A DNA stretch of 23,806 nt, from assembly GCA_025544715.1 (NCBI GenBank), contig GCA_025544715.1_4109.5; one strand, 5' to 3'. The position numbers and the translations under genes were made by a program. The notes under the pieces are model-generated. The model ran no database searches and was not told where the DNA came from. It saw only the letters and a program-made list of their open reading frames with translations. This document shows positions 1-14,051 of this stretch, in pieces. The stretch's first letter is position 1; each line of letters starts with the position of its first letter. Source of the stretch: Escherichia coli. Lineage in GTDB: Bacteria; Pseudomonadota; Gammaproteobacteria; Enterobacterales; Enterobacteriaceae.

Positions 1-51
1 GTATAGTACTGAAAGCATTAATCAATGACAGAAAAAAGTTAAAATAATCTA

Positions 52-80
52 TTGACAATATCATCCAGTACTGGCATAAT
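52..80 (+). promoter_or_regulatory. sigma70-type promoter
   Basis: TTGACA (52-57), 17-nt spacer containing AGTACTG, CATAAT (75-80), then conserved ACTTACATCAAG start region. Confidence 0.6.
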
Positions 81-140
81 ACTTACATCAAGACGAGAAC
101 GTCACTAACCCATAGGGTGCACAAATGTAACTGTCTAATA

Positions 141-176
141 TTGATCAAAAAATGATCTGATCAATACTTGATCAAT
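141..176 (+). promoter_or_regulatory. cluster of TTGATCAA palindromes (four GATC sites in about 32 bp)
   Basis: attgatcaaaaaatgatctgatcaatacttgatcaatttg read directly; overlaps -35 of next promoter. Confidence 0.4.
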
Positions 177-195
177 TTGCGTAAAGTAGTATAAT
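168..195 (+). promoter_or_regulatory. candidate sigma70-type promoter
   Basis: TTGATC (168-173), 16-nt spacer, TATAAT (190-195). Confidence 0.45.
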
Positions 196-378
196 TCTAT
201 GCAGTTGGTTAGACGAAAGGTTATGATTAGTAGTGGAAGTGTATAAAAATTTTCATGGTGTATCGTTTCGCACATATGGCAATGAATATGTGGTATCATG
301 TGGATTGGAAAAAGTAAGAACAAGTAATATTATTGTCGCATTACAGTACTATAGTATTTTTATAATGAGGTTAAAATA

Positions 379-636
379 ATGGCTGTAGGATTCACAAAAG
401 ATGGGGCCGAGCAAGACGAGATTAACGCAGTGATTCAGGCCGCTGTTAACCACGCTAGAACGCAAATTAACGCACAAATAGAATCACTGATACATTGCCT
501 CGACTGCGGTGATAAAATCCCTGAGAATCGCCGCCAGGCCGTTAAGGGGTGTAAGTACTGCATAACTTGCCAGGAGGATCATGATAGTATTTTTAAACGT
601 CAACCGCGTAATTGTTGGCATAGATCTATGAGATAA
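379..636 (+). CDS. TraR/DksA-family C4 zinc-finger protein (85 aa)
   Basis: GAGG 8 nt upstream of ATG; paired Cys motifs CLDCGDKIP...CKYCITCQ typical of TraR/DksA zinc fingers. Confidence 0.75.
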   Translation: MAVGFTKDGAEQDEINAVIQAAVNHARTQINAQIESLIHCLDCGDKIPENRRQAVKGCKYCITCQEDHDSIFKRQPRNCWHRSMR

Positions 637-642
637 AAAGTA

Positions 643-670
643 TTGACAGTACTGAAAGATAGTGTATACT
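643..670 (+). promoter_or_regulatory. sigma70-type promoter
   Basis: TTGACA (643-648), 16-nt spacer with AGTACTG, TATACT (665-670). Confidence 0.6.
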
Positions 671-699
671 ATTTTATATCTTAACTGAGGATTGAAATC

Positions 700-1056
700 A
701 TGGGTATTCAACACATCACGCGTACTACTGACAATGGCGAGATCACTGGCTATCAAGTACAGGGCAAAGTAGCACAATTGCAGTACTGGTTTGTAAAACG
801 TGGATTGATTGCACCGGATCTTGATTATGACCGTGTAGCGTTTATTGATTCTCTTTATGTTGATCCTGATAGTCGGGGCAATGGTGAAGGTAACGAATTA
901 ATGAATGCCTTTATTGATGCCGCCGATGATTCAGATTGTATCATTTTAGAATGCGATACGGGAGAAGATAACGCCTTTAATCTTAAAGAATGGTACGAAG
1001 GTTTCGGATTCGAGGTACTGATCGATAGTGAATATCCTATCATGATTTTATCATAG
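700..1056 (+). CDS. small GNAT-like N-acetyltransferase (118 aa)
   Basis: GAGG RBS; VDPDSRGNGEGNELM resembles GNAT motif A (R-x-x-G-x-G) and C-terminal FNLKEWYEGFGF resembles motif B; judged by eye only. Confidence 0.55.
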   Translation: MGIQHITRTTDNGEITGYQVQGKVAQLQYWFVKRGLIAPDLDYDRVAFIDSLYVDPDSRGNGEGNELMNAFIDAADDSDCIILECDTGEDNAFNLKEWYEGFGFEVLIDSEYPIMILS

Positions 1057-1059
1057 TAC

Positions 1060-1088
1060 TTGCATTTAGTTTTCAGTACTGTTATAGT
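1060..1088 (+). promoter_or_regulatory. sigma70-type promoter
   Basis: TTGCAT (1060-1065), 17-nt spacer with AGTACTG, TATAGT (1083-1088), ACTTACATCAAG downstream. Confidence 0.6.
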
Positions 1089-1100
1089 ACTTACATCAAG

Positions 1101-1117
1101 GGGAAACATCTTCCCCT
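1101..1117 (+). other. 5' leader stem-loop (GGGGAA / TTCCCC)
   Basis: 6-bp inverted repeat just downstream of predicted transcription start, upstream of RBS. Confidence 0.5.
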
Positions 1118-1128
1118 ACTAAGAGGAA

Positions 1129-1323
1129 ATGAAAATGGAAAACTTATCAAGTATTTTAGTACAAGATGATTTCGGTAATCCTGGAAGTGCTATCATTGTT
1201 CGGGGTAATAAAGCAACATTTGTTATTGCTGGTGGACCTGTACAGCGTAGCATTAAAAACAATGCCGTTACTATTAATAATGTACGCTATCGCTTAGATA
1301 AAGAATTGATTCATAAACTGTAA
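1129..1323 (+). CDS. hypothetical protein (64 aa)
   Basis: ORF after promoter, hairpin and AAGAGG; in-frame ATG at 1135 is an alternative start. Confidence 0.6.
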   Translation: MKMENLSSILVQDDFGNPGSAIIVRGNKATFVIAGGPVQRSIKNNAVTINNVRYRLDKELIHKL

Positions 1324-1350
1324 TATTAATTTAATAGAGGATAACAATAA

Positions 1351-1674
1351 ATGTACATTCATACTACTATCACAAAGGAAGTCCGTTGCCAGTTCGAAAG
1401 TATTCCGGGCGTATGTTTCATCACTGGTACGTTTTCCCCTGGTGATCGTGATAATCCAGTACTGTTACAATTACGCCATCCATCATGGGATAAAGCATTT
1501 GATCTACCGTTGAATGAATTCGCAACTACTGCTGAAAAGTACATTAAAAATATTCGTGAGAATGATCGACTATTCATTAATGCTTTTAGTGATTCCGCGT
1601 TAAGCGAGATCCACGGCGTATTGGTTGCAATCATGGAATCAATGGAGAAAACTAAATTCAAACAAGGTGAATAA
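1351..1674 (+). CDS. hypothetical protein (107 aa)
   Basis: GAGGA RBS 8-9 nt upstream of ATG. Confidence 0.65.
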   Translation: MYIHTTITKEVRCQFESIPGVCFITGTFSPGDRDNPVLLQLRHPSWDKAFDLPLNEFATTAEKYIKNIRENDRLFINAFSDSALSEIHGVLVAIMESMEKTKFKQGE

Positions 1675-1680
1675 AAACTA

Positions 1681-1709
1681 TTGACAATGTAATCTAGTAC
1701 TGTATAATA
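1681..1709 (+). promoter_or_regulatory. sigma70-type promoter (consensus)
   Basis: TTGACA (1681-1686), 17-nt spacer with AGTACTG, TATAAT (1704-1709). Confidence 0.7.
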
Positions 1710-1720
1710 AGTTACATGAA

Positions 1721-1741
1721 GGGGAGAAAATGATTCTCCCC
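1721..1741 (+). other. 5' leader stem-loop (GGGGAGAA / TTCTCCCC)
   Basis: perfect 8-bp inverted repeat with 5-nt loop between promoter and RBS. Confidence 0.6.
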
Positions 1742-1758
1742 ACTGAGAGGAAAGAAAA

Positions 1759-1971
1759 ATGCAAGGTCAACTAATCGTTCGTAAATGGTCTGATACTAAT
1801 GAAAAACCGTGGGATGTTCAATACATCGGACCGGATGGGGTATCACGTTATCAGCCTGGCGTAACGCATAGTACTGAGCAATTCGCCAACGCTCACCGCG
1901 AACGCCTGTTAGAATCCATGAAACAGGGATACGGTGAAAAATTCATTCAAGATCATTGGCTGAAAGATTAA
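1759..1971 (+). CDS. hypothetical protein (70 aa)
   Basis: promoter, leader hairpin, GAGAGG RBS, ATG. Confidence 0.7.
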   Translation: MQGQLIVRKWSDTNEKPWDVQYIGPDGVSRYQPGVTHSTEQFANAHRERLLESMKQGYGEKFIQDHWLKD

Positions 1972-1988
1972 TATAAGGAGTACAGCTT

Positions 1989-2081
1989 ATGCAAATGAAT
2001 CCGATGATTATTGTTTTAGCTGTACTTATGATCATTCATGCAATAGTAGAAGTATTAAATCAATCAGGAGTAATAAAATGA
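1989..2081 (+). CDS. small hydrophobic peptide (30 aa, MQMNPMIIVLAVLMIIHAIVEVLNQSGVIK)
   Basis: AAGGAG 8 nt upstream of ATG; below ORF-track size cutoff; stop overlaps next start (ATGA). Confidence 0.4.
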   Translation: MQMNPMIIVLAVLMIIHAIVEVLNQSGVIK

Positions 2082-2251
2082 TCCAGGTAGAATTAACAGT
2101 ACTGAAAGATCTGTTTTATCGGTTAGGTACTACTGGCGAGTATCCTAAAAGTGATACCGCAAAACTTTTTGTATCACTCGATTTATGGCAACGCGAACAA
2201 TTAGTAATGTCCTGGCGTAAAGGTAAAGCAGATAGCGAGGTGAAAGCATGA
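2078..2251 (+). CDS. hypothetical small protein (57 aa)
   Basis: translated by hand; ATGA overlap with neighbours on both sides. Confidence 0.45.
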   Translation: MIQVELTVLKDLFYRLGTTGEYPKSDTAKLFVSLDLWQREQLVMSWRKGKADSEVKA

Positions 2252-2397
2252 AAGAATTCTTATTCGAAGTAGTGTTTCAAGGTGTCGGTAGTAACCAACT
2301 GATTCGCTCAAGTGGTTACAATGTTAACCAGGCATGGAATAACATTAAACAAATGTACCCGAACGCTATCACATATCGCAACCCGAAAGAAGTTTAA
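2248..2397 (+). CDS. hypothetical small protein (49 aa)
   Basis: translated by hand; ATGA overlap upstream; ends just before terminator-like hairpin. Confidence 0.45.
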   Translation: MKEFLFEVVFQGVGSNQLIRSSGYNVNQAWNNIKQMYPNAITYRNPKEV

Positions 2398-2411
2398 AAA
2401 GAATTGAAAAA

Positions 2412-2433
2412 GGGATTGACTCCGGTCAGTCCC
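2412..2433 (+). terminator. terminator-like hairpin GGGATTGAC-TCCG-GTCAGTCCC
   Basis: 9-bp stem with one G-U pair and 4-nt loop, preceded by A-run, followed by TTTGCTATTATATA. Confidence 0.5.
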
Positions 2434-2444
2434 TTTGCTATTAT
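2416..2444 (+). promoter_or_regulatory. promoter embedded in hairpin
   Basis: TTGACT (2416-2421), 17-nt spacer, TATTAT (2439-2444). Confidence 0.55.
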
Positions 2445-2535
2445 ATACGCATAGAAACAAATCAGCCCACAGGGTGCATAAATGTATCTATTGTTTGCTG
2501 GTGGCTAGTACTGAAAACTATTTTTAAAAAAGTAC

Positions 2536-2563
2536 TTGCATTGTACTTAGAATCAAGTATAAT
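2536..2563 (+). promoter_or_regulatory. sigma70-type promoter of the AAAAAGTACTTGCA class
   Basis: A-tract, TTGCAT (2536-2541), 16-nt spacer, TATAAT (2558-2563), GTTTTACAT downstream; same cassette at 5262, 6118, 6453, 7961. Confidence 0.6.
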
Positions 2564-2651
2564 GTTTTACATCAGGACGGGGAACGAAACAAGTAACCCC
2601 GTTAAGTAGTCCAGGAGTAAGACATAAGAAAACCTCCCCTGATAAAATAGT

Positions 2652-2680
2652 TTGACAATAGAAAGTAAACGAGTATAATA
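2652..2680 (+). promoter_or_regulatory. sigma70-type promoter (consensus)
   Basis: TTGACA (2652-2657), 17-nt spacer, TATAAT (2675-2680), ACTTACATCAA downstream. Confidence 0.7.
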
Positions 2681-2712
2681 CTTACATCAACCACTGATAA
2701 GGAAACATTAAA

Positions 2713-2988
2713 ATGCGGATTCTACTGACAGCTAACGAAATCGAACAAGTACTGACTACTAACCTGGAAGACTGGAAACGTGAAGCAGATATCCAGGCGG
2801 TTCAATGGCTTAACGATAAGTTAACGCCGGATGACTTAAGCAAGATTGTAGATCCTCAATTCTACGAAGATATTCACGACACCGCGTTAAGCGTCGAGGA
2901 TGTACTTGATAAGCACTACATTGATATTGATTTGCAGGTTTACGGTCGTAAAAACTTTATCACTATTCACGACATTTACAATAATTAA
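2713..2988 (+). CDS. hypothetical protein (91 aa)
   Basis: AAGGA RBS 10 nt upstream of ATG; promoter upstream. Confidence 0.7.
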   Translation: MRILLTANEIEQVLTTNLEDWKREADIQAVQWLNDKLTPDDLSKIVDPQFYEDIHDTALSVEDVLDKHYIDIDLQVYGRKNFITIHDIYNN

Positions 2989-2991
2989 GTA

Positions 2992-3019
2992 TTGACAAAG
3001 TATCTTAGTACTGTATAAT
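2992..3019 (+). promoter_or_regulatory. sigma70-type promoter (consensus)
   Basis: TTGACA (2992-2997), 16-nt spacer with AGTACTG, TATAAT (3014-3019); almost identical to promoter at 5569. Confidence 0.7.
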
Positions 3020-3034
3020 AGTTTACATCAAGGC

Positions 3035-3052
3035 AGGGGGAATGGTTCCCCT
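3035..3052 (+). other. 5' leader stem-loop (AGGGGGA / TTCCCCT)
   Basis: inverted repeat with AATGG loop between promoter and RBS. Confidence 0.55.
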
Positions 3053-3076
3053 CCTAACTAAAAGAGAGAAATTAAA

Positions 3077-3400
3077 ATGGCTATGATCCTGTCCCAGAAA
3101 GTAGAACTGAAAATTGTAACCTCCTTTGACATTAAAGTGAATCGCTGGACTGATCGGAACGGTAACACTTACCACTCTTGCTACGTGTCCGCATTGATTG
3201 GTGATCGCTGGGAGGATTTAGGACACGAAACATTTACATACGGTTACGGCACTCAAGGCGAATACACGGGCTTGGAGATCATTAAAGAAACCGTTATAGG
3301 TTTCAACCCGAAAGAAAACGTTATTCACCGCATCGAGGAAGAGATCAACAAAGAAATAACAGTTCGCTACTACGATGTAAAACGTAAGAAAGATATGTAA
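3077..3400 (+). CDS. hypothetical protein (107 aa)
   Basis: promoter, leader hairpin, purine-rich RBS, ATG. Confidence 0.7.
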   Translation: MAMILSQKVELKIVTSFDIKVNRWTDRNGNTYHSCYVSALIGDRWEDLGHETFTYGYGTQGEYTGLEIIKETVIGFNPKENVIHRIEEEINKEITVRYYDVKRKKDM

Positions 3401-3422
3401 TAGAATCCATTTAAAGTACTAT

Positions 3423-3451
3423 TTGACATTGCCCAGATAGTACTTTATAAT
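3423..3451 (+). promoter_or_regulatory. sigma70-type promoter (consensus)
   Basis: TTGACA (3423-3428), 17-nt spacer with AGTACT, TATAAT (3446-3451). Confidence 0.7.
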
Positions 3452-3495
3452 AGACTCTAACTTGTAGTACTAACTTAACTAATAGGATATATACC

Positions 3496-3891
3496 ATGAT
3501 TACTAAATTCTACGCTACCCGTGAAGCTGCCCGTATTGTTGCACGCGAGGAAGGAGAAGCATTTAAAGACATGGGCAAAGATGCACCGAAAGGCCAACGC
3601 TGGGCCGTACAGTTCAAAGAAATCTCTGATATTGTGAATTCACCTGAGCCAGTACTAACAGCAGAAGAACAAAAACAAGCTGAAGAACTGGCGGCAATTC
3701 TTAACGCTCAAGATGAATTCGTCGCGGGTACTGATATCCAGGTTGTAGTAAATTCGAATGCATGGACTCACGCGGATCACCTGGCAAACCTGAAGCGTCC
3801 AAGTGAACTGATTCGCAACCAAAAAGAGATCCGTCATGACCGTAAGGGAAACCGTGTTACCGTATACAGTAAACGCCGCCAGGTTATCTAA
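3496..3891 (+). CDS. hypothetical protein (131 aa)
   Basis: AGGA RBS; consensus promoter upstream; followed by strong terminator. Confidence 0.7.
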   Translation: MITKFYATREAARIVAREEGEAFKDMGKDAPKGQRWAVQFKEISDIVNSPEPVLTAEEQKQAEELAAILNAQDEFVAGTDIQVVVNSNAWTHADHLANLKRPSELIRNQKEIRHDRKGNRVTVYSKRRQVI

Positions 3892-3913
3892 TAACTTGCA
3901 GTACTAACAACAC

Positions 3914-3938
3914 GGCGGGATCAGTTCCCGCCTTTTTT
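3914..3938 (+). terminator. rho-independent terminator
   Basis: GGCGGGA-TCAGT-TCCCGCC 7-bp GC-rich stem followed by TTTTTT. Confidence 0.8.
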
Positions 3939-3953
3939 ATAGGATAAACTAAA

Positions 3954-4208
3954 ATGATGAAGGTACAACTATCTAAAGATAATATCTTGCGGGTACACTA
4001 TAAAGCACCACAGAGAATCATCACAAAGGCCGTACAGCTTGCTAATGAGTTTATTAATGGTAGTCTATTACCCAGGAAGTTAAGCAACGGGAAACTACGT
4101 GTTATCGATGTAGACACTAACAACAGAATAGTAATTGAGAATACTGGAAAGATAAACCTTTATGAGCATCAACAGTATAATAAGAAAATAAAACTAATAT
4201 CACGTTGA
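3954..4208 (+). CDS. hypothetical protein (84 aa)
   Basis: AGGA RBS then ATG; lies directly after terminator, so expression may rely on read-through. Confidence 0.6.
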   Translation: MMKVQLSKDNILRVHYKAPQRIITKAVQLANEFINGSLLPRKLSNGKLRVIDVDTNNRIVIENTGKINLYEHQQYNKKIKLISR

Positions 4209-4233
4209 CAGTACTCAAATGTTTTAGTACTAT
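4205..4233 (+). promoter_or_regulatory. candidate sigma70-type promoter
   Basis: TTGACA (4205-4210) overlapping upstream stop codon, 17-nt spacer with two AGTACT, TACTAT (4228-4233). Confidence 0.5.
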
Positions 4234-4262
4234 GTATCTATACCAACACGGGGGAAAACAAA

Positions 4263-4505
4263 ATGATTACTTTAGAAAAACGTATCAAAGAAACTACATC
4301 GCTGGTGGAACTGTTAACTGTACTGAAATGCCGTACTACTCGGTTTAGTACACCGGACTTTATTAATATGGTTGATGTTAACGGTCGTTATCGCATTGCA
4401 GTAGAACAAGGAACAGCGAAAGTATTCAGTACTAAAAACACTAAGGAAGTGATTCACGCTGTAAGTGTTAAAAAAGTAGTTGCAATTGATAGTAAAGTAC
4501 TGTAA
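4263..4505 (+). CDS. hypothetical protein (80 aa)
   Basis: GGGGGA RBS then ATG. Confidence 0.6.
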   Translation: MITLEKRIKETTSLVELLTVLKCRTTRFSTPDFINMVDVNGRYRIAVEQGTAKVFSTKNTKEVIHAVSVKKVVAIDSKVL

Positions 4506-4536
4506 GATAGTTACATTAACTCAAGGAGAACATGCA

Positions 4537-5121
4537 ATGCGTCAATATACTAAATTCATCCGGTCCCTGTCAGAAATGGAAACTAATAAAGAGATCCTTT
4601 CAGCTTGTCGGTTAGCTGGTCTGGAAATCATCGGGGCCGGATCATCCCGTATAGTATTCGCTTTAAATGATCGGTTAGTGATTAAGGTCGCTAATTGTGA
4701 TGCGGGTGTAGAACAAAATGAAACTGAATGTAAGGTATGGAATTTTTTAGACTATGACCGCCCTCAGTTGAAACAGTTCTTTGCTAAGGTGCATATGCAT
4801 TTAAGCGATCCTGATAATATGTTTATTGTTATGGATCGTTTGAGTACTGCAAGCAAAGGCAGTGTAAAGCACGTTAACGCGTGCAACGAATTAAAGTACA
4901 ATATTAAACGTAATGCCATTGAACGCCAGCACCGCTTTGCTGATGCATTACAACACGTTGATGATACCTTATCAACCCTAACGTTAAGAGATATCAGAAA
5001 ACAGAACATCGGCCAGGATCGCAACGGCCTTATTAAAGTACTTGATTACGGTTTAACCCGCAATATCTGGAATCAGTACTATAAAAAGCGTGATGTAAAA
5101 GCCGTAACTATAACACGATAA
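4537..5121 (+). CDS. minimal protein-kinase-like protein (194 aa)
   Basis: AGGAGA RBS 7 nt upstream of ATG 4537 (ORF track extends to 4480). Gly-rich loop IGAGSSRIVF, then VIKV lysine, catalytic-loop-like DIRKQNIG (D-x-K-x-x-N) and DFG-like LDYG. Confidence 0.55.
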   Translation: MRQYTKFIRSLSEMETNKEILSACRLAGLEIIGAGSSRIVFALNDRLVIKVANCDAGVEQNETECKVWNFLDYDRPQLKQFFAKVHMHLSDPDNMFIVMDRLSTASKGSVKHVNACNELKYNIKRNAIERQHRFADALQHVDDTLSTLTLRDIRKQNIGQDRNGLIKVLDYGLTRNIWNQYYKKRDVKAVTITR

Positions 5122-5135
5122 AAAAGATTAAAAAT

Positions 5136-5157
5136 GGGATTGACTTCGGTCAGTCCC
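5136..5157 (+). terminator. terminator-like hairpin GGGATTGAC-TTCG-GTCAGTCCC
   Basis: 9-bp stem, UUCG tetraloop, U-containing tail; directly after stop of kinase-like gene. Confidence 0.5.
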
Positions 5158-5168
5158 TTTGCTATTAT
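5140..5168 (+). promoter_or_regulatory. promoter embedded in hairpin
   Basis: TTGACT, 17-nt spacer, TATTAT (5163-5168). Confidence 0.55.
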
Positions 5169-5261
5169 ATATTCATTGAGAGATAGCTCACTGACCCACA
5201 GGGTGCAGAAGTGTATCTATTATATAAGTATTCAGTACTGAAAACTATTTTTAAAAAGTAC

Positions 5262-5290
5262 TTGCAAACTATCTCAAATCGCGTATAATG
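5262..5290 (+). promoter_or_regulatory. sigma70-type promoter of the AAAAAGTACTTGCA class
   Basis: TTGCAA (5262-5267), 17-nt spacer, TATAAT (5285-5290). Confidence 0.6.
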
Positions 5291-5301
5291 TTTTATATCG
5301 A

Positions 5302-5323
5302 GAGGGGGAAATGGTTCTCCCTG
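5302..5323 (+). other. 5' leader stem-loop (GGGGGAA / TTCTCCC)
   Basis: inverted repeat with AATGG loop; the loop ATG is the spurious ORF-track start at 5311. Confidence 0.55.
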
Positions 5324-5343
5324 GTACATTAAGGAATAAAATC

Positions 5344-5565
5344 ATGACTACAATGACTTGCATTCACGCTTCAAACCTGCTTAATGATGCGGCCTTTAAT
5401 GTTGAAACAGAATATCAATGTTATCGGGATGAAAATAAAAAAGTTTTTGTAGTTGATAATAATGGTTTCCATATTGAATTGCAATCCGGTTTCACTGGCA
5501 TTGATGGTAAATCAGTATGGGGCGTACAGGACGATAAAGGCACATATCATTTTAAACGTAATTAA
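5344..5565 (+). CDS. hypothetical protein (73 aa)
   Basis: start moved from 5311 (hairpin loop) to ATG 5344, 8 nt after AAGGA. Confidence 0.6.
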   Translation: MTTMTCIHASNLLNDAAFNVETEYQCYRDENKKVFVVDNNGFHIELQSGFTGIDGKSVWGVQDDKGTYHFKRN

Positions 5566-5568
5566 GTA

Positions 5569-5596
5569 TTGACAAAGTATATCAGTACTGTATAAT
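5569..5596 (+). promoter_or_regulatory. sigma70-type promoter (consensus)
   Basis: TTGACAAAGTAT-ATCAGTACTG-TATAATAGTTTACATCAAGG, near-identical to 2992-3033. Confidence 0.7.
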
Positions 5597-5608
5597 AGTT
5601 TACATCAA

Positions 5609-5627
5609 GGGGAGAATAGTTCTCCCC
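5609..5627 (+). other. 5' leader stem-loop (GGGGAGAA / TTCTCCCC)
   Basis: perfect 8-bp inverted repeat, loop TAG. Confidence 0.6.
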
Positions 5628-5649
5628 GATACTAAAAGGAAACAAAATT

Positions 5650-5922
5650 ATGTCTAGCTACTCCGCTACTATGATCATTAAAGATATGAACGGTAATCCT
5701 ACTTCTGCTGGTGGATCATTTGGAAACATTAACTTAGATGGTCGGTTATCAATTGAATCAGCCATCAATGCAGCGAAAGAAGTTTTTAAGAATGAATGTA
5801 CTGTAAGCAAGCTGGATTATATGGGCTTCGCTATCGAAAAAACTAATCGTTTTGTGGACTACAAAAAACCACTGATGATTGATACTAACCTGAAAGCGAA
5901 CGAAGTGGAATACTTATTATGA
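5650..5922 (+). CDS. hypothetical protein (90 aa)
   Basis: AAGGA RBS then ATG. Confidence 0.65.
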   Translation: MSSYSATMIIKDMNGNPTSAGGSFGNINLDGRLSIESAINAAKEVFKNECTVSKLDYMGFAIEKTNRFVDYKKPLMIDTNLKANEVEYLL

Positions 5923-6110
5923 CAGTTGAAGAAGTTAAAAAAGTACTGGCAGTACTACGCTATCATAATCATTGCAAGGTTAAGAATGATCCTGATTATC
6001 TTGATTCATCCCTGGAAGAGGATACACTACAAGCAATAAGCCATATGCAAAAAATGCTTAAGCGTATGACTGAAAAGAATAGACCGGACTATATCGGAAA
6101 TAAAATTTAA
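5919..6110 (+). CDS. hypothetical protein (63 aa)
   Basis: ATGA overlap with upstream stop, suggesting translational coupling. Confidence 0.55.
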   Translation: MTVEEVKKVLAVLRYHNHCKVKNDPDYLDSSLEEDTLQAISHMQKMLKRMTEKNRPDYIGNKI

Positions 6111-6117
6111 AAAGTAC

Positions 6118-6145
6118 TTGCATTGTAGTTAGATTAACGTATAAT
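6118..6145 (+). promoter_or_regulatory. sigma70-type promoter of the AAAAAGTACTTGCA class
   Basis: TTGCAT (6118-6123), 16-nt spacer, TATAAT (6140-6145). Confidence 0.6.
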
Positions 6146-6157
6146 GTTTTACATAGA

Positions 6158-6178
6158 GCGGGGGAATAGTTCTCCCGC
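6158..6178 (+). other. 5' leader stem-loop (GCGGGGGAA / TTCTCCCGC)
   Basis: 9-bp stem with one G-U pair; same hairpin repeated at 7132-7152. Confidence 0.6.
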
Positions 6179-6196
6179 CAGTCCAGGAGATACACC

Positions 6197-6463
6197 ATGA
6201 ACACTATCGAAATCACTATCAATGCTCACGTATACGACAACGTAGTACTGCAAACTACTATGACCGCTCACGATACCAGTACTTTGCGGAATACCGTTGT
6301 AAGTGCTGTATGTGCTGCAATCGGTGATGTAGCCCTGGAAAATGCAGAACACATCAACAACGGTTTCACTATGTGCAAGCGTGATAACGCAAAACATATC
6401 ATCGTAGAAGGTTACGGCGGTGTAGAATATAACCTTTATATGAAAAAAGTACTTGCATCGTAA
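6197..6463 (+). CDS. hypothetical protein (88 aa)
   Basis: CCAGGAG RBS then ATG. Confidence 0.65.
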   Translation: MNTIEITINAHVYDNVVLQTTMTAHDTSTLRNTVVSAVCAAIGDVALENAEHINNGFTMCKRDNAKHIIVEGYGGVEYNLYMKKVLAS

Positions 6464-6480
6464 TTAAAACAAAGTATAAT
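6453..6480 (+). promoter_or_regulatory. sigma70-type promoter overlapping end of upstream CDS
   Basis: AAAAAGTACTTGCAT with TTGCAT at 6453-6458, 16-nt spacer, TATAAT (6475-6480). Confidence 0.55.
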
Positions 6481-6490
6481 GTTTTGCATA

Positions 6491-6509
6491 GGGGGAGATA
6501 TCCTCCCCC
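6491..6509 (+). other. 5' leader stem-loop (GGGGGAG / CTCCCCC)
   Basis: perfect 7-bp inverted repeat, loop ATATC. Confidence 0.6.
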
Positions 6510-6528
6510 ACTAATAAGGAGTACTAAA

Positions 6529-6753
6529 ATGGCTAATCATGATGACCTGATTCGGGAAGTAGCTAACCTGGCGGCAGAAAAGAAATCATTCGATTCTATC
6601 TATAACACCGCTCACCGTGATTCAGTACTGGCATCAACGCAAGATCAAAAAGATGAACTGATCGCCACCTATCATGAAGCATGGAAGTATTACCGCCAAT
6701 GGGAGAAAGAAGAAAGTGAGTCTACCATTGACGGCCTCAATAATCTAATCTAA
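6529..6753 (+). CDS. hypothetical protein (74 aa)
   Basis: ORF-track start 6484 is a TTG upstream of the hairpin; ATG 6529 follows AAGGAG RBS. Confidence 0.65.
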   Translation: MANHDDLIREVANLAAEKKSFDSIYNTAHRDSVLASTQDQKDELIATYHEAWKYYRQWEKEESESTIDGLNNLI

Positions 6754-6771
6754 AGTTTTATTTCAGTACTA

Positions 6772-6800
6772 TTGACAATACTGGATAGTACTGATATGAT
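6772..6800 (+). promoter_or_regulatory. sigma70-type promoter
   Basis: TTGACA (6772-6777), 17-nt spacer with AGTACTG, TATGAT (6795-6800). Confidence 0.55.
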
Positions 6801-6827
6801 AACTTTACTATCTAAAGGGGAAACATA

Positions 6828-7085
6828 ATGGAACAGTTCACACAATATCGGGTAAATCCTCAAGCTATGGCCTATGTAGAAGACCATAAAACATTACCAG
6901 TACTGCAACCAGTTAAAGGTCATATCTATCGTGCAATGTCATGGAGTAACGCCCAGGATGGATATACTACCGCCGCCGTGGGTATGTACTGCGGGAATGG
7001 TGAATGGTTTGATCCTAGTAATCCGGTAGCCATTGACAGTACTGAAAAAATGAAATGGGCCGACTACATCGAAGATATTTCATAA
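6828..7085 (+). CDS. hypothetical protein (85 aa)
   Basis: AAAGGGGA RBS then ATG. Confidence 0.65.
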   Translation: MEQFTQYRVNPQAMAYVEDHKTLPVLQPVKGHIYRAMSWSNAQDGYTTAAVGMYCGNGEWFDPSNPVAIDSTEKMKWADYIEDIS

Positions 7086-7091
7086 AACTAT

Positions 7092-7119
7092 TTGACAGTA
7101 CTAACCAGTAATGTATAAT
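7092..7119 (+). promoter_or_regulatory. sigma70-type promoter
   Basis: TTGACA (7092-7097), 16-nt spacer with AGTACT, TATAAT (7114-7119), GTTTTACATAGAG downstream. Confidence 0.65.
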
Positions 7120-7131
7120 GTTTTACATAGA

Positions 7132-7152
7132 GCGGGGGAATAGTTCTCCCGC
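7132..7152 (+). other. 5' leader stem-loop (GCGGGGGAA / TTCTCCCGC)
   Basis: identical to hairpin at 6158-6178. Confidence 0.6.
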
Positions 7153-7174
7153 CAATAGTTTGGAGTAAAACATT

Positions 7175-7375
7175 ATGTCTATCGCTATCGCCCTGGTTGA
7201 AGTACTGAAAGAAGCTAAAGCCAACCTTATCGATGTACAGATTAAGGAATTGCAAAATGGTTTAATCGGCTGTACTTGTACCGCTGGTGGAGCGGCAGAC
7301 TATCGGGAATTCGAATCACTTGAATCGATGGTCCGTTATCTTACCATGATCGTAGAAGATTGGAGAATCATCTAA
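7175..7375 (+). CDS. hypothetical protein (66 aa)
   Basis: GGAG RBS then ATG. Confidence 0.6.
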   Translation: MSIAIALVEVLKEAKANLIDVQIKELQNGLIGCTCTAGGAADYREFESLESMVRYLTMIVEDWRII

Positions 7376-7393
7376 CAAAAAAGAATAAAAAAA

Positions 7394-7415
7394 GGGATTG
7401 ACTCCGGTCAGTCCC
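7394..7415 (+). terminator. terminator-like hairpin GGGATTGAC-TCCG-GTCAGTCCC
   Basis: same hairpin as 2412-2433. Confidence 0.5.
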
Positions 7416-7426
7416 TTTGCTATTAT
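7398..7426 (+). promoter_or_regulatory. promoter embedded in hairpin
   Basis: TTGACT, 17-nt spacer, TATTAT (7421-7426). Confidence 0.55.
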
Positions 7427-7538
7427 ATACGCATAGACAAAAACTAGCCCACTGGGTGCAGGAGTGTATCCAAAATATATAGTTAATAACGGTGAGTAAC
7501 TATTTGCTGGTGGAGTGAAAACTATTAATAAAAAACTA

Positions 7539-7567
7539 TTGACAAAGTATATCAGTACTGCAATAAT
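7539..7567 (+). promoter_or_regulatory. candidate sigma70-type promoter
   Basis: TTGACAAAGTATATCAGTACTG then AATAAT; weaker -10 than sibling promoter at 5569. Confidence 0.5.
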
Positions 7568-7620
7568 GTATCTCGTAGGGCGGCAATGGTGCGACGGCCC
7601 ACAAAGTTAGGAGTAACATC

Positions 7621-7953
7621 ATGTCTACATCAATCGCTATCGTTAAAGCTTTCATCCGTACCAATGTTTCTTCTGTATTCATCGACGGTCTGGATCGGGA
7701 AGTAGAATACTCAATCATTATCGCACAGACTGCAAACGGTGCTCGGTACATCCTGAATGATAGTGAAGCAAATCACTACTACTTCACTAAAGCTACTGGC
7801 TTTAAACGCATCGATGCTGACGTAGTATACGCTAAGATGAATAAGCTGGTAGACAAGATTAACGCTAAAGGTACTATAGATTTACAGTACTGGAACGAAA
7901 CCGATCCAGAATACGGATCTCACCGCTACCTGAATCCAGGAATTAAAATGTAA
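7621..7953 (+). CDS. hypothetical protein (110 aa)
   Basis: TTAGGAG RBS then ATG; GC-rich leader hairpin upstream. Confidence 0.7.
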   Translation: MSTSIAIVKAFIRTNVSSVFIDGLDREVEYSIIIAQTANGARYILNDSEANHYYFTKATGFKRIDADVVYAKMNKLVDKINAKGTIDLQYWNETDPEYGSHRYLNPGIKM

Positions 7954-7960
7954 AAAGTAC

Positions 7961-7988
7961 TTGCATAGTACTTAGAATCAAGTATAAT
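7961..7988 (+). promoter_or_regulatory. sigma70-type promoter of the AAAAAGTACTTGCA class
   Basis: about 45 bp identical to promoter at 2527-2570. Confidence 0.6.
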
Positions 7989-8000
7989 GTTTTACATAGA

Positions 8001-8022
8001 GAGGGAGAAATGGTTCTCCCTC
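8001..8022 (+). other. 5' leader stem-loop (GAGGGAGAA / TTCTCCCTC)
   Basis: perfect 9-bp inverted repeat with ATGG loop; loop ATG is the spurious ORF-track start 8010. Confidence 0.6.
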
Positions 8023-8042
8023 CTAAATTAAGGAGTTTTATC

Positions 8043-8444
8043 ATGACCTTCTCAATCAATTCCTTCGCTGACGTTTTAGTACTGGCACGGACTTTCGGTA
8101 AAGATGCACTGGAGTACGCTGTAAGTAATGGCACTATCCAACCGGAACAATGCCGCATCATTGGAAACTGCAAACGTTGGGCGGTATCCAATACTATTGC
8201 ACTGGAAAACTTCAACGATGGCAACAATGAATATTCTGTTGATGTAGTATTCGAAGCCGTTGATCTCGGCGGTATCTATAACACTAACTTGAATGATGTG
8301 CGTATCGTTCGCACGGGGTTCGGTGCTTATGATGTATCTATCCGTGAAGCTATGGACAAGGGATACATTAGCAAGGACTTACTTGCTCACATCATGCAGC
8401 TGTGGACGGAACGTAACGAAGCACGTACTATCTTAGGGCTGTAA
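8043..8444 (+). CDS. hypothetical protein (133 aa)
   Basis: start moved from 8010 to ATG 8043, which follows AAGGAG RBS. Confidence 0.65.
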   Translation: MTFSINSFADVLVLARTFGKDALEYAVSNGTIQPEQCRIIGNCKRWAVSNTIALENFNDGNNEYSVDVVFEAVDLGGIYNTNLNDVRIVRTGFGAYDVSIREAMDKGYISKDLLAHIMQLWTERNEARTILGL

Positions 8445-8468
8445 GCAATACACATCACCAAACATCAT

Positions 8469-8488
8469 AGGCCGCTCTCTAGCGGCCT
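8469..8488 (+). other. GC-rich palindrome AGGCCGCT-CTCT-AGCGGCCT
   Basis: 8-bp perfect inverted repeat in AT-rich context; no U-run, so not a classic terminator. Confidence 0.35.
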
Positions 8489-8512
8489 TAACTATATCAG
8501 GAGGGCATACAT

Positions 8513-8722
8513 ATGTTCTATACCGTATACAGCGTTCTAGGTACTATTGCAGGCGTACATGATAACGTCAATGATGCTATGCGTACAGTACTGCAACAGG
8601 TTCCACTAAAGCCTAAGACTGTTAAGCAGATGACAGCACGACTAACCAGGGCGACGGATGGCGTGGAAGTATGGCAGGACTACGGGGATACACAGATAAT
8701 CGTTAGCGTAACGAAGGATTAA
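8513..8722 (+). CDS. hypothetical protein (69 aa)
   Basis: AGGAGG RBS then ATG. Confidence 0.6.
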   Translation: MFYTVYSVLGTIAGVHDNVNDAMRTVLQQVPLKPKTVKQMTARLTRATDGVEVWQDYGDTQIIVSVTKD

Positions 8723-8750
8723 TGCGTAAAGGGATCTAGTACTGATTCAG

Positions 8751-8816
8751 AAAAAAGTCAAGGCGTTTTTAAAATTATGCGTTAAAAAAATGCATAGGTA
8801 ATCCCTTGACTTTTTT
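8751..8816 (+). other. 13-bp perfect inverted repeat flanking a 40-bp spacer; possible bidirectional terminator or operator
   Basis: AAAAAAGTCAAGG (8751-8763) and CCTTGACTTTTTT (8804-8816) are exact reverse complements; inner TATGC/GCATA pair. Confidence 0.35.
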
Positions 8817-8913
8817 GAAATAAAAGGGATTGGACTATGGCAAAATGCGTAGGGGGCTAAAGGGCGGGTAACCTTAGCGACTTCGATAAAGGGGTATTAC
8901 GAATAAAATGTTA

Positions 8914-8941
8914 TTGACTTTTTATATGAATCGTATAAAAT
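8914..8941 (+). promoter_or_regulatory. candidate promoter for the paralog array
   Basis: TTGACT (8914-8919), 16-nt spacer, TAAAAT (8936-8941). Confidence 0.5.
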
Positions 8942-8971
8942 ATGATTGATATTAATTTTAAGGGAGTCCCT

Positions 8972-9169
8972 ATGCATATTTTAACTCAAGCAGAACACCA
9001 CGAAAGACTTATCAATAACATGGCTATGATAATGTATAAGTCACATGAACGTGGTATGTCCTATAAGCGTGAATTAGTTATGGCACTATTCATTGGGACT
9101 AACTTTCAGGAAAGGTATGTCAACGATTGGATTTGGTATTTAATTGAAGATATAACGAGTAAACTATGA
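8972..9169 (+). CDS. family-1 paralog 1 (LGTNYQ-motif small protein)
   Basis: AAGGGAG RBS then ATG 8972 (ORF-track start 8942 is upstream of the RBS); C-terminal LFIGTNFQERYV...IEDITSKL. Confidence 0.65.
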   Translation: MHILTQAEHHERLINNMAMIMYKSHERGMSYKRELVMALFIGTNFQERYVNDWIWYLIEDITSKL

Positions 9170-13434: not shown

Positions 13435-13639
13435 TTCAGTAATATTACTTATAGAGAGTTCAAGTCAATTCTTAAACATATCACTGTCTGATATAGATGA
13501 AGATGATAAAGAAGTACTGAGAGCAGATTTAAGAGTACTGTTACATCTCGGAACAAACCTACAAGAAAGATATGTAGAGTACTACATTGATGAACTTAAA
13601 GAATCAGTACTGAGAAAATGCAAATGCAAATGCGAATGA
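13412..13639 (+). CDS. family-1 paralog 21
   Basis: HLGTNLQERYV motif; C-terminus KCKCKCE encoded by AAATGC hexamer repeat. Confidence 0.65.
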   Translation: MKILSKGDSVILLIESSSQFLNISLSDIDEDDKEVLRADLRVLLHLGTNLQERYVEYYIDELKESVLRKCKCKCE

Positions 13640-13851
13640 TTACCGACGAAGAATACCTAACAATCATAAATGGACTGTTTTTGAAGCTCTTCGTCATTAA
13701 CACATCAGATATACCAGATATGGATAAAATTATTAAGAGAAATGAAATCTATGTTCTAGCTACCCTGGGAACTAACTATCAAGAATACGATATTAATGAT
13801 TATATTAAGACACTTAAACGAGCGATTGAACTAAAATGCCAAAACCACTAG
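13618..13851 (+). CDS. family-1 paralog 22
   Basis: ATLGTNYQEYDI motif; start may be ATG 13636 (ATGA overlap). Confidence 0.6.
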   Translation: MQMQMRMITDEEYLTIINGLFLKLFVINTSDIPDMDKIIKRNEIYVLATLGTNYQEYDINDYIKTLKRAIELKCQNH

Positions 13852-14051
13852 GAACAGCAGAATACATTGAACTCATGGGATTACACTTCTCATCCTTTCA
13901 GAAACTTATGCGAGAATCAAAGAATGATTTAGAATATACCATCAGAGGTTCAGATTTAAGAATGCTTCTCACCCTAGACACAGATTCCCAAGAGCGATTT
14001 GTCAATGAGCACATTAGAGCACTTTTAATGGAAATTCAAAGTAAACTATGA
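13836..14051 (+). CDS. family-1 paralog 23
   Basis: TLDTDSQERFV motif. Confidence 0.65.
   Translation: MPKPLGTAEYIELMGLHFSSFQKLMRESKNDLEYTIRGSDLRMLLTLDTDSQERFVNEHIRALLMEIQSKL

What the first reader, a model, noticed from the sequence alone, without database searches (positions are those of the whole stretch)
1101..8022. Family of 5' leader hairpins whose arms mimic Shine-Dalgarno and anti-Shine-Dalgarno sequences
Nine promoters are followed, a few nt after the predicted start, by a stem-loop of the form GGGG(R)GAA-loop-TTC(Y)CCCC (1101, 1721, 3035, 5302, 5609, 6158, 6491, 7132, 8001), often with loop AATGG or ATAG. The 5' arm is purine-rich and SD-like, the 3' arm CU-rich. The hairpin sits 10-30 nt upstream of the real RBS. 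A 5'-terminal stem-loop is a known way to protect mRNA from 5'-end-dependent decay; the SD-like arm could also act as a ribosome standby or decoy site. Two further promoters carry variant hairpins (2577-2602, 7575-7605).
Basis: partly seen in the sequence, partly recalled or inferred. Interest (0 to 1): 0.7.

Follow-up and report, generated by a model that had tools for sequence, protein, structure and literature searches.

The report
Leader hairpins in phage early-gene cassettes
Nine early genes of this jumbo coliphage each carry the same portable unit of strong promoter, G/C-rich RNA hairpin and ribosome site; this unit resembles promoter/stem-loop cassettes already known from T4-type phages, and the hairpin's likeness to ribosome-binding sequences looks incidental.

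Summary
All nine hairpins are real (7-9 bp, -10.6 to -16.8 kcal/mol). Each starts 10-16 nt after the -10 hexamer of a near-consensus sigma-70 promoter and ends 17-24 nt before the start codon of a small ORFan. The window is the early, terminal-repeat region of an Asteriusvirus jumbo coliphage.

The same unit recurs about 22 times per genome. It also occurs in RaK2-like, CBB-like and Munch-like jumbo phages and in some rV5-like coliphages. Distant copies keep the position but change the stem (GAUUAGGG/CCUUAAUC, GGGUAAGC/GCUUACCC). Among 49 distinct copies the inner 7 pairs always pair, with 3-5 pair types each. G.U pairs favour the sense strand, so selection acts on the RNA.

None has a U tract, so they are not classical terminators. 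Arm spacing varies, so they are not fixed-geometry DNA operators.

The SD/anti-SD likeness holds for the window's copies but not family-wide. The predicted unpaired 5' tail (about 3-7 nt) is longer than a classical 5'-terminal protector should have.

The closest known kind is the PeSL cassette of RB49/phi1, with which strings are shared. Two indels between relatives break inside cassettes.

Most likely this is an RNA stability or boundary hairpin within a mobile cassette. That function is inferred, not shown.

The parts
1059..1137 (+). Cassette 1: -35 CTTGCA (1059-1064), -10 TATAGT (1083-1088), leader, SD AAGAGGAA, ATG 1135
   Evidence: downstream ORF of 62 aa has no Pfam match
1099..1117 (+). 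Leader hairpin AGGGGAA-ACAUC-UUCCCCU
   Evidence: -10.6 kcal/mol; 1 T in the 8 nt after the stem
1681..1761 (+). Cassette 2: TTGACA-16-TATAAT, leader, SD GAGAGG, ATG 1759
1721..1741 (+). Leader hairpin GGGGAGAA-AAUGA-UUCUCCCC
   Evidence: -13.8 kcal/mol
2992..3079 (+). Cassette 3: TTGACA-16-TATAAT, leader, ATG 3077. In CRJP21 this cassette is duplicated around an extra gene.
3036..3052 (+). Leader hairpin GGGGGAA-UGG-UUCCCCU (extends to 3031-3055 with a 1-nt bulge)
   Evidence: -14.0 kcal/mol
5262..5346 (+). Cassette 4: TTGCAA-16-TATAAT, leader, ATG 5344
5303..5322 (+). Leader hairpin AGGGGGAA-AUGG-UUCUCCCU, with an internal G.U pair. Its 3' end is a deletion breakpoint relative to TH47.
   Evidence: -11.0 kcal/mol; sense -10.9 vs antisense -6.6
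5569..5652 (+). Cassette 5: TTGACA-16-TATAAT, leader, ATG 5650
5609..5627 (+). Leader hairpin GGGGAGAA-UAG-UUCUCCCC
   Evidence: -13.2 kcal/mol, z -3.7
6117..6199 (+). Cassette 6: CTTGCA-17-TATAAT, leader, SD CAGGAG, ATG 6197
   Evidence: the other partner of the TH47 deletion
6158..6178 (+). Leader hairpin GCGGGGGAA-UAG-UUCUCCCGC
   Evidence: -14.4 kcal/mol
6452..6531 (+). Cassette 7: CTTGCA-17-TATAAT, leader, SD AAGGAG, ATG 6529
6491..6509 (+). Leader hairpin GGGGGAG-AUAUC-CUCCCCC
   Evidence: -15.0 kcal/mol
7092..7177 (+). Cassette 8: TTGACA-16-TATAAT, leader, ATG 7175
7132..7152 (+). Leader hairpin GCGGGGGAA-UAG-UUCUCCCGC. The CRJP21 orthologue ends ...CCCGU, so the basal pair becomes G.U.
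   Evidence: -14.4 kcal/mol
7960..8045 (+). Cassette 9: CTTGCA-17-TATAAT, leader, SD AAGGAG, ATG 8043
8001..8022 (+). Leader hairpin GAGGGAGAA-AUGG-UUCUCCCUC
   Evidence: -16.8 kcal/mol

Best explanation
Each hairpin is the stem-loop module of a portable early-gene cassette. The cassette reads: AT-rich upstream segment, near-consensus sigma-70 promoter, conserved initial transcribed sequence (TTACAT...), G-rich/C-rich stem-loop, SD, then the start codon of a small ORFan. The cassettes are the jumbo-phage counterpart of the PeSL (promoter-early stem-loop) cassettes of T4-type phages RB49 and phi1.

The stem-loop forms in the sense RNA, and what is selected is its structure rather than its sequence. 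I think it most likely acts as a generic nuclease barrier or boundary. On transcripts from its own promoter it lies 5'-proximal. Most genes here have no terminator, so transcripts from upstream promoters read through; on those, the hairpin sits between cistrons. There it can stop 3'-to-5' exonucleases and mark a stable segment end, so that each small gene's message survives as a separate module.

The homology between cassettes also provides crossover sites that shuffle, delete and insert ORFans. The SD/anti-SD likeness of the arms is a by-product of a G-run/C-run stem in an AT-rich genome.

Shown here: the hairpins, their position, covariation, strand bias, absence of a U tract, spread across phage lineages, and breakpoints inside cassettes. 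Inferred: the transcript start, and any effect on RNA stability or expression.
For: - The hairpins and their geometry are established.
- About 22 copies lie on one strand within 16 kb of the complete relative TH47, with one further promoter-linked copy at 128.9 kb.
- The cassette is found in Asteriusvirus, Alcyoneusvirus (inside the annotated 20-kb terminal repeat), Munch, Hallingskeid, Vequintavirinae and Justusliebigvirus. It is also in IMG/VR jumbo contigs, with unrelated stems at the same offset.
- Covariation on 49 distinct copies: the inner 7 pairs are 100% paired with 3-5 pair types each. The score is 0.54, against 0.21 for shuffles (0 of 500 reach it) and <=0.23 for slid partners.
- Sense RNA is more stable than antisense in 34 cases against 15. 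Among family members, every difference above 2 kcal/mol favours the sense strand.
- The nine hairpins have 1-3 T in the 8 nt after the stem. The canonical terminator at 3914 has 7, and the three terminator/promoter hairpins have 4-5.
- The downstream genes are 62-133 aa with no Pfam match.
- Indel breakpoints lie inside cassettes in comparisons with CRJP21 and TH47.
- RB49 PeSLs share the strings AAAAAGTTGTTGACA, CATCAAGACGAGA and AGGAGAATCAAAATG with these jumbo-phage cassettes. One RB49 cassette has its stem-loop 12 nt after the -10, as here.
- PeSL is defined in PMC2839356 and PMC4122927.
- Stem-loops protect E. coli transcripts against PNPase and RNase II (PMC10667835). A 5' hairpin impedes RppH (PMC3997798).
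Against: - No transcript ends have been mapped for any of these phages.
- The predicted unpaired 5' tail of 3-7 nt is enough for RppH (PMC10667835), and RNase E bypasses simple stem-loops when scanning (PMC9943677). The 5'-protection half of the explanation is therefore weak.
- Several early genes in the same array have no hairpin at all (promoters at 643, 2652, 3423, 4205 and 6772), so it is not required for expression.
- Some genes are not followed by any hairpin, so the 3'-barrier role is not universal either.
- Loop sequences recur across genera (UAG, UGG, AUGG, AAUGG), which a purely structural role does not predict.
- The copies are paralogues spread by recombination. Part of the conserved position and sequence may therefore be shared descent rather than selection.
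Confidence: 0.5

Rival explanations
1. Attenuator or terminator. As proposed for PeSLs, the stem-loop stops or damps RNA polymerase arriving from upstream cassettes. This would prevent transcription from piling up along an array of about 20 strong co-directional promoters and occluding the downstream ones.
For: - The PeSL authors found that an RB49 stem-loop reduced downstream lacZ expression about as much as rrnB T1 (PMC2839356).
- The cassettes here are sequence relatives of the RB49 ones.
- Most genes in the array have no other terminator.
Against: - None of the nine has a U tract: 1-3 T in the 8 nt after the stem, and none is picked up by the terminator scan.
- The same region uses classical hairpin-plus-T-run terminators where units do end (3914; 2409, 5136 and 7391).
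- Sitting after the start site, the hairpin would also stop transcripts from its own promoter.
Confidence: 0.15
2. Regulatory operator or SD switch. The shared hairpin marks a set of early mRNAs for a phage-encoded RNA-binding or RNA-cleaving factor. Removing or unwinding the G-rich 5' arm would free the CU-rich 3' arm to mask the SD 5-10 nt downstream and shut off early translation. This is the strongest form of the reader's SD/anti-SD idea.
For: - With the 5' arm removed, the predicted SD accessibility falls from 0.66 to 0.40. SDs with accessibility below 0.5 rise from 15 of 67 to 45 of 67.
- 3' arm:SD duplexes reach -3 to -7 kcal/mol in 8 of 9 window copies.
- Loops of the type UAG, UGG and (A)AUGG, and a GGGAAUGG core, recur even where the stems differ.
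- T4 RegA and RegB set a precedent for factors acting on many early mRNAs (own knowledge).
Against: - The alternative pairings are weak compared with the hairpin itself.
- Arms in distant members are neither SD-like nor anti-SD-like.
- Loop length and sequence vary (3-6 nt, at least 15 variants), so no single recognition determinant is conserved.
- No candidate factor was identified.
Confidence: 0.12
3. DNA-level element only. The palindrome would be a protein operator at about +5 to +25, or a recombination hot spot (cruciform or homology), and the RNA hairpin would have no function of its own.
For: - Breakpoints of two indels fall in or at the hairpin.
- RB49 crossovers were mapped to the stem-loop (PMC2839356).
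- The element is palindromic and overlaps the initial transcribed region.
Against: - G.T wobble positions are tolerated only in the sense orientation.
- The distance between the G block and the C block varies from about 7 to 13 bp among copies, which does not fit a dimer with fixed half-site spacing.
- Stems change by compensatory substitution.
- Recombination needs homology, not a hairpin.
Confidence: 0.08
4. Co-transcriptional device. The nascent hairpin would form once RNA polymerase has reached the SD/AUG region. It would either block backtracking to speed clearance of very strong promoters, or induce a hairpin-stabilised pause that lets the first ribosome load.
For: - The distances are fixed both to the promoter and to the SD.
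- The hairpins are associated with perfect or near-perfect consensus promoters.
Against: - No pause consensus was examined or found.
- Equally strong promoters in the array lack the hairpin.
- The argument is purely inferential.
Confidence: 0.07

Closest known systems
PeSL (promoter-early stem-loop) cassettes of T4-type phages RB49/phi1, and of PST/T4 and nt-1/KVP40 (Arbiol et al. 2010, PMC2839356; Comeau et al. 2014, PMC4122927)
   Same: - Near-consensus sigma-70 early promoter with an AT-rich upstream segment.
- G(n)-loop-C(n) stem-loop with G.T pairs.
- SD and start codon of a small ORFan.
- Many copies in a variable region, with indels between close relatives that break in the cassettes.
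- Literal shared strings with RB49 cassettes, and one RB49 cassette with the stem-loop 12 nt after the -10.
- The window also holds the subclass in which the stem-loop overlaps the -35 (2409, 5136, 7391).
   Different: - In RB49 the stem-loop mostly lies between or over the promoter hexamers, so it is not in the cassette's own transcript. Here the leader position is the dominant, fixed one.
- The host phages are RaK2-like jumbo phages plus some rV5-like phages, not T4-type phages.
- The cassette array lies in the long terminal repeat.
- There are no terminator features.
- PeSL mini-circles were not tested.
5'-terminal stabiliser hairpins (ompA 5' UTR; hairpin appended to bla mRNA; T7 gene 10 leader GGGAGACCACAACGGUUUCCC)
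   Same: A stable stem-loop near the 5' end of an mRNA, upstream of a free SD. Structure matters rather than sequence. The T7 gene 10 leader likewise has a G/A-rich 5' arm and a C/U-rich 3' arm (own knowledge).
   Different: Those hairpins start at or within a few nt of the 5' end (own knowledge, Emory et al. 1992; PMC3997798). Here a conserved unpaired tail of 3-7 nt (ACAUCAA or AUAGA) is predicted. No half-life data exist.
Intercistronic or 3' stabiliser stem-loops that block PNPase and RNase II (selective RNA processing and stabilisation, PMC10667835)
   Same: A stable G/C-rich hairpin without a U tract, lying between co-transcribed cistrons.
   Different: Here the hairpin is separated from the upstream stop codon by a whole promoter. 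No processing sites have been mapped.
Intrinsic terminators
   Same: A G/C-rich hairpin of 7-9 bp.
   Different: There is no U tract, and the hairpin lies inside the leader of the gene it precedes.
Lambdoid nut sites (boxA + boxB)
   Same: A short promoter-proximal RNA hairpin on early transcripts.
   Different: No boxA-like sequence lies near any hairpin. The loop is not a conserved GNRA-like pentaloop, and the stems and loops vary.

Membership tests
PeSL cassette | Sigma-70-consensus early promoter with an AT-rich upstream segment | tested here: met
   TTGACA, TTGCAA or CTTGCA at 16-18 nt from TATAAT or TATAGT, preceded by AAAAAGTA-type runs
PeSL cassette | Adjacent stable stem-loop, typically G(n)-loop-C(n), with G.T pairs | tested here: met
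   Nine hairpins at -10.6 to -16.8 kcal/mol; G.U pairs at 5303, 6158 and 7132
PeSL cassette | Cassette ends with the SD and start codon of a small gene, often an ORFan | tested here: met
   SD 5-10 nt after the hairpin; ORFs of 62-133 aa without a Pfam match
PeSL cassette | Many copies concentrated in a variable (hyperplastic) region | tested here: met
   Nine in 7 kb of the window and none in the other 15 kb; about 22 within 16 kb of TH47
PeSL cassette | Gene insertions or deletions between close relatives with crossover in the cassettes | tested here: met
   Cassette 2975-3083 flanks an extra gene in CRJP21. TH47 lacks 5323-6105, with the junction at hairpin 5303-5322 / cassette 6108-6178. 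Other indels (1324-1672, 7088-7377) are not flanked by two cassettes.
PeSL cassette | Stem-loop acts as a terminator or attenuator of upstream transcription | not testable with these tools
   A functional assay is needed. The sequence signature of an intrinsic terminator (U tract) is absent.
PeSL cassette | Sequence relatedness to the RB49/phi1 cassettes | tested here: met
   Shared strings in the UP/-35 segment, the initial transcribed sequence and the SD-start. They are spread over different jumbo-phage cassettes, not all found in the nine. No formal homology statistic was computed.
PeSL cassette | Formation of excised mini-circles | not testable with these tools
   Needs inverse PCR on phage DNA
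5'-terminal stabiliser hairpin | Stem-loop at or within a few nt of the transcript's 5' end | tested here: inconclusive
   The start site is not mapped. With a start at the 6th-8th nt after the -10, the tail is 3-7 nt in the window and 1-8 nt family-wide.
5'-terminal stabiliser hairpin | Function depends on structure, not sequence | tested here: met
   Compensatory changes at all inner pairs; unrelated stems at the same position in distant phages
5'-terminal stabiliser hairpin | Lengthens mRNA half-life | not testable with these tools
   Needs an experiment
Intrinsic terminator | G/C-rich hairpin directly followed by a U tract | tested here: not met
   1-3 T in the 8 nt after each stem; none reported by the terminator scan
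nut-type antitermination site | boxA sequence plus a boxB hairpin with a conserved pentaloop | tested here: not met
   No boxA-like match in any leader; loops of 3-6 nt with at least 15 sequences
Any Rfam family | Match to a curated covariance model | tested here: not met
   No hit at gathering score in the whole window, and none at E<=1 in 1-9000

The most novel reading that the evidence does not exclude
The leader hairpin, together with its conserved unpaired ACAU... tail, is the common operator of an early regulon of 20 or more genes. A phage-encoded RNA-binding or RNA-cleaving factor would recognise it at the early-to-middle switch. Loss of the G-rich 5' arm would then release the CU-rich 3' arm to mask the SD just downstream. 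This would be a built-in, cassette-borne translational off-switch, spread horizontally among unrelated coliphages.
Probability: 0.1. Interest if true: 0.7.

Novelty: new member of a known kind. Interest (0 to 1): 0.4.

Why it matters
These cassettes are the units from which RaK2-like jumbo phages build their host-takeover region. They recur about 20 times in the long terminal repeat, which probably enters the cell first (my inference). Near-identical cassettes also occur in unrelated coliphage groups (rV5-like phages).

This extends PeSL-type modular shuffling beyond the T4-type phages. It also gives comparative evidence that the stem-loop is selected as RNA on the sense transcript, which the published terminator interpretation does not require.

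In practical terms, the cassettes are compact natural expression modules (strong promoter, structured leader, RBS). Testing the hairpin's contribution would be straightforward and would be useful for construct design.

Tried and rejected
- Literal consensus search found only 2 of 9 sites and was replaced by a structural scan.
- Rfam at gathering score and at E<=1, and a tRNA scan, found nothing.
- A MAFFT alignment from the -10 to the SD (A1) was not in structural register. It was replaced by a gapless loop-anchored alignment (A2).
- I considered RNase E scanning blockage as a rescue for the 5'-protection idea. I rejected it after reading that simple stem-loops are readily bypassed (PMC9943677).
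- Literature searches found no transcript maps of Asteriusvirus or RaK2-like phages, and no published description of these hairpins. One search was too unspecific to be useful.
- Arnold et al. 1998 could not be retrieved, so the '2-4 nt' rule for 5'-terminal hairpins rests on my own knowledge.
- An ATG lies in many loops, and at 5311 and 8010 it is in frame with the gene. I considered a leader-peptide or alternative start and set it aside. The frame is not conserved (3043 is out of frame), UAG loops lack an ATG, and the spacing from the SD-like arm is only about 3 nt.
- I considered CsrA, RNase III and G-quadruplex readings and dropped them. The loops lack GGA followed by A, the stems are only 7-9 bp, and there are not four G runs.
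The one at 2577-2602 was reassigned to a separate non-coding unit.

Full report
**What the window is**

Megablast places window 1000-9000 in Asteriusvirus jumbo coliphages (PBECO4/121Q group, 347-386 kb). The best match is CRJP21, at 95% identity over 100% of the query. The region is an array of small genes on one strand, most with their own near-consensus sigma-70 promoter. In relatives the array lies in the ~20-kb direct terminal repeat. This is shown by the annotation of Klebsiella phage Muenster, by that of phage vB_Ec-M-J, and by the Sharanji paper (PMC11895373). Beyond about 8.7 kb the window changes to tightly packed overlapping ORFs with few strong promoter matches.

**Observation check**

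All nine fold as expected, at -10.6 to -16.8 kcal/mol. The geometry is uniform:
- The stem starts 10-13 nt after the -10 hexamer. For 3036 the figure is 16, or 12 with its bulged extension.
- The stem ends 5-10 nt before the SD and 17-24 nt before the ATG.

In the complete relative TH47, 13 strict promoter-like sites carry a hairpin 8-18 nt after the -10, against 1.7 expected for random positions, and 11 of them lie in one 12-kb stretch. With the CTTGCA-type promoters included, about 22 copies lie at 88.3-104.3 kb on one strand, plus one at 128.9 kb.

The other, 7575-7605, folds no better than shuffled sequence.

**A family that crosses phage lineages**

A 111-nt cassette query finds 10-23 places per Asteriusvirus genome. 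It also finds weaker matches covering promoter, hairpin and SD in several other groups:
- Alcyoneusvirus (RaK2, K64-1, Muenster);
- the Salmonella jumbo phage Munch and Erwinia phage Hallingskeid;
- the ~145-kb coliphages A73 (Vequintavirinae) and muut (Justusliebigvirus).

An IMG/VR scan was defined only by promoter and initial transcribed sequence (AGTACTGTATAAT-N3-6-ACAT). It brings in more distant jumbo contigs, including the record of CBB's length. In these contigs the hairpin sits at the same offset but has different stems:
- GATTAGGG-aatgg-CCTTAATC
- GGGTAAGC-aatacc-GCTTACCC
- GACAGGAGA-tag-TCTCTTGTC
- GGGGATACA-tag-TGTATCCCY
- GGGAATGAA-tga-TTCATTCCC
- GGGGAGAT-agt-GTCTCCCC

**Structure is selected, on the sense RNA**

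I used a gapless, loop-anchored alignment of 49 distinct copies. The seven pairs nearest the loop are paired in every sequence, with 3-5 standard pair types each. There are 91 cells with changes on both sides, against 33 in shuffles. The covariation score is 0.54, against 0.21 for shuffles (0 of 500 reach it) and at most 0.23 when partners are slid by 1-3 columns.

One caveat applies. The copies were chosen because they form hairpins, and they are paralogues, so the percentage paired is partly true by construction. The double changes are not.

Folding each hairpin on both strands gives the sense strand as more stable in 34 cases, the antisense in 15, and no difference in 4. Among family members, every difference above 2 kcal/mol favours the sense strand, for example -10.9 vs -6.6 and -13.9 vs -8.5. 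This is because A-U to G.U changes (GGGGAGAA to GGGGGGAA opposite UUCUCCCC) are tolerated only in that orientation.

**What it is not**

- Not an intrinsic terminator. There are 1-3 T in the 8 nt after each stem, and none is reported by the terminator scan. The same region has one classical terminator (3914-3932, followed by TTTTTT) and three hairpin-plus-T-rich elements (2409, 5136, 7391).
- Not a fixed-geometry DNA operator. The G block and C block are 7-13 bp apart in different copies, and the strand bias argues for RNA.
- Not a nut site. There is no boxA-like sequence in any leader, and the loops vary.
- Not a known RNA family.

**The SD/anti-SD likeness**

For the nine window copies the description is accurate. 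The 5' arms are predicted to bind the 16S 3' end at -6.0 to -8.9 kcal/mol, as well as the true SDs do (-4.9 to -8.8). The 1st percentile of the window's 8-mers is -6.7. If the 5' arm is removed in silico, the freed CU-rich arm lowers SD accessibility from 0.66 to 0.40.

Three points count against a function, however. The arm is locked in a -9 to -14 kcal/mol helix. The alternative pairings are weak (-0.6 to -7.4 kcal/mol). Most arms in distant members are not SD-like (-3.0 to -5.5 kcal/mol; a few reach -6 to -7.4). I conclude that the likeness is a by-product of a G-run/C-run stem.

One related oddity: two hairpin-less leaders (6772 and 4205) use the same string, GGGGAAACAT or GGGGGAAAAC, as their real SD.

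**Closest known kind**

[quoted passage not shown] They are clustered in hyperplastic regions and mediate gene shuffling. Five subclasses are distinguished by stem-loop position, one of them downstream of the -10 (PMC2839356; PMC4122927).

I read RB49's own cassettes. Most have the stem-loop in the spacer or over the -10. The cassette before ORF207 has it 12 nt after the -10, as here. RB49 cassettes also share literal strings with the jumbo-phage cassettes: AAAAAGTTGTTGACA, CATCAAGACGAGA and AGGAGAATCAAAATG.

The recombination hallmark is also present. CRJP21 has an extra gene flanked by two copies of cassette 2975-3083. TH47 lacks window 5323-6105, with the junction exactly between hairpin 5303-5322 and cassette 6108-6178, which leaves a chimeric cassette. 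Two other indels are not flanked by cassettes on both sides.

The nine downstream genes are 62-133 aa with no Pfam match. No paper on CBB, Sharanji, PA5oct or Asteriusvirus in the held library mentions these hairpins.

**How it most likely works**

The following are shown: an RNA stem-loop selected for structure on the sense strand, at a fixed place in the leader, within a mobile cassette. The function is inferred.

The classical 5'-terminal protector model needs the stem at or very near the 5' end (own knowledge; PMC3997798). With the usual start at the 6th-8th nt after the -10 (A6 or A8 of TTACAT), a tail of 3-7 nt remains. That is enough for RppH, which needs two unpaired nucleotides and prefers three or more (PMC10667835). 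RNase E also readily bypasses simple stem-loops while scanning (PMC9943677).

Most genes in the array lack terminators, so transcripts from upstream promoters must run through downstream cassettes. On those transcripts the hairpin is intercistronic, where stem-loops are known to stop PNPase and RNase II (PMC10667835). This role also fits the RB49 subclasses whose stem-loop is not in the cassette's own transcript.

I therefore favour a generic stability or boundary element (confidence 0.5 for the whole statement). The rivals are attenuation (0.15), a regulatory operator or SD switch (0.12), a DNA-only role (0.08) and a pausing or promoter-clearance role (0.07). The recurrent loops (UAG, UGG, AUGG, AAUGG) and the GGGAAUGG core that persists where stems differ remain unexplained by a purely structural role.

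**Verdict**

The element is a new member of a known kind (PeSL-type cassettes), found in a new phage lineage and with the leader position dominant. I rate the interest as moderate, at 0.4.

Noticed in passing
whole window; densest in 1-8743, also 13513-15609 and 23549-23766: AGTACT occurs 70 times against 6.1 expected, and 53 of these are in the first 8.7 kb. In the cassettes, one copy sits at or just 5' of the -35 and another directly 5' of the -10 (cAGTACTG-TATAAT), about 21 bp apart. It is also common inside ORFs. The same holds in RaK2, CBB, Munch and IMG/VR jumbo contigs. It may be a regulator operator or another DNA-level signal.
   Followed up: partly
window 81-150, 2445-2514, 5169-5240, 7427-7498: There are four copies of a promoter-driven non-coding unit with an invariant core (A/G)CCCAYAGGGTGC. 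The core is preceded by a short hairpin that varies by compensatory changes. The unit is conserved in RaK2, CBB-length and other jumbo contigs. It has no Rfam or tRNA match, so it is probably an undescribed small RNA family.
   Followed up: partly
window 2409-2444, 5136-5168, 7391-7426: A 10-13 bp hairpin (GGGATTGACTCCGGTCAGTCCC) contains a -35 TTGACT in its 5' arm. It is followed by a T-rich tail and a TATTAT -10. This is a composite terminator/promoter, like the PeSL subclass in which the stem-loop overlaps the -35.
   Followed up: partly
window 2530-2650: A promoter drives a ~75-nt structured unit with no ORF. It has a closing helix AUCAGG/CCUGAU and the inner hairpin 2577-2602 (-19.2 kcal/mol, z -2.9). 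It is conserved in CRJP21, UE-S1 and the Vequintavirinae phage A73. Related units with the motif TAAGTAG..CCAGTAAG..ACGAAAA..CTGG occur in TH47, RaK2 and L066.
   Followed up: partly
window 6772-6830 and 4205-4265: Two hairpin-less leaders use GGGGAAACAT or GGGGGAAAAC as the actual SD. This is the same string as the 5' arm plus loop of hairpin 1099-1117.
   Followed up: no
window 5311 and 8010: The ATG in the hairpin loop is in frame with the accepted start 33 nt downstream (ORFs 5311..5565 and 8010..8444). This is not so at 3043. It is probably incidental.
   Followed up: partly
window 4537-5121: A 194-aa ORF has a weak protein-kinase match below the Pfam cut-off (Pkinase, E 0.0011, 18.9 bits vs 31.7). 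Some relatives annotate a serine/threonine kinase in this region.
   Followed up: no
L023, L061, L066 (IMG/VR jumbo contigs), e.g. L066 9273-9300: A further cassette subclass has a palindrome centred on the -10 (GGGGCTATTA-TATAAT-AGTCCC). This matches the PeSL subclass in which the stem-loop overlaps the -10.
   Followed up: no
window 8469-8488: A G/C-rich hairpin AGGCCGCTCTCTAGCGGCCT lies between two + strand genes, with no T tract on the + strand. The terminator scan reports it only on the - strand.
   Followed up: no
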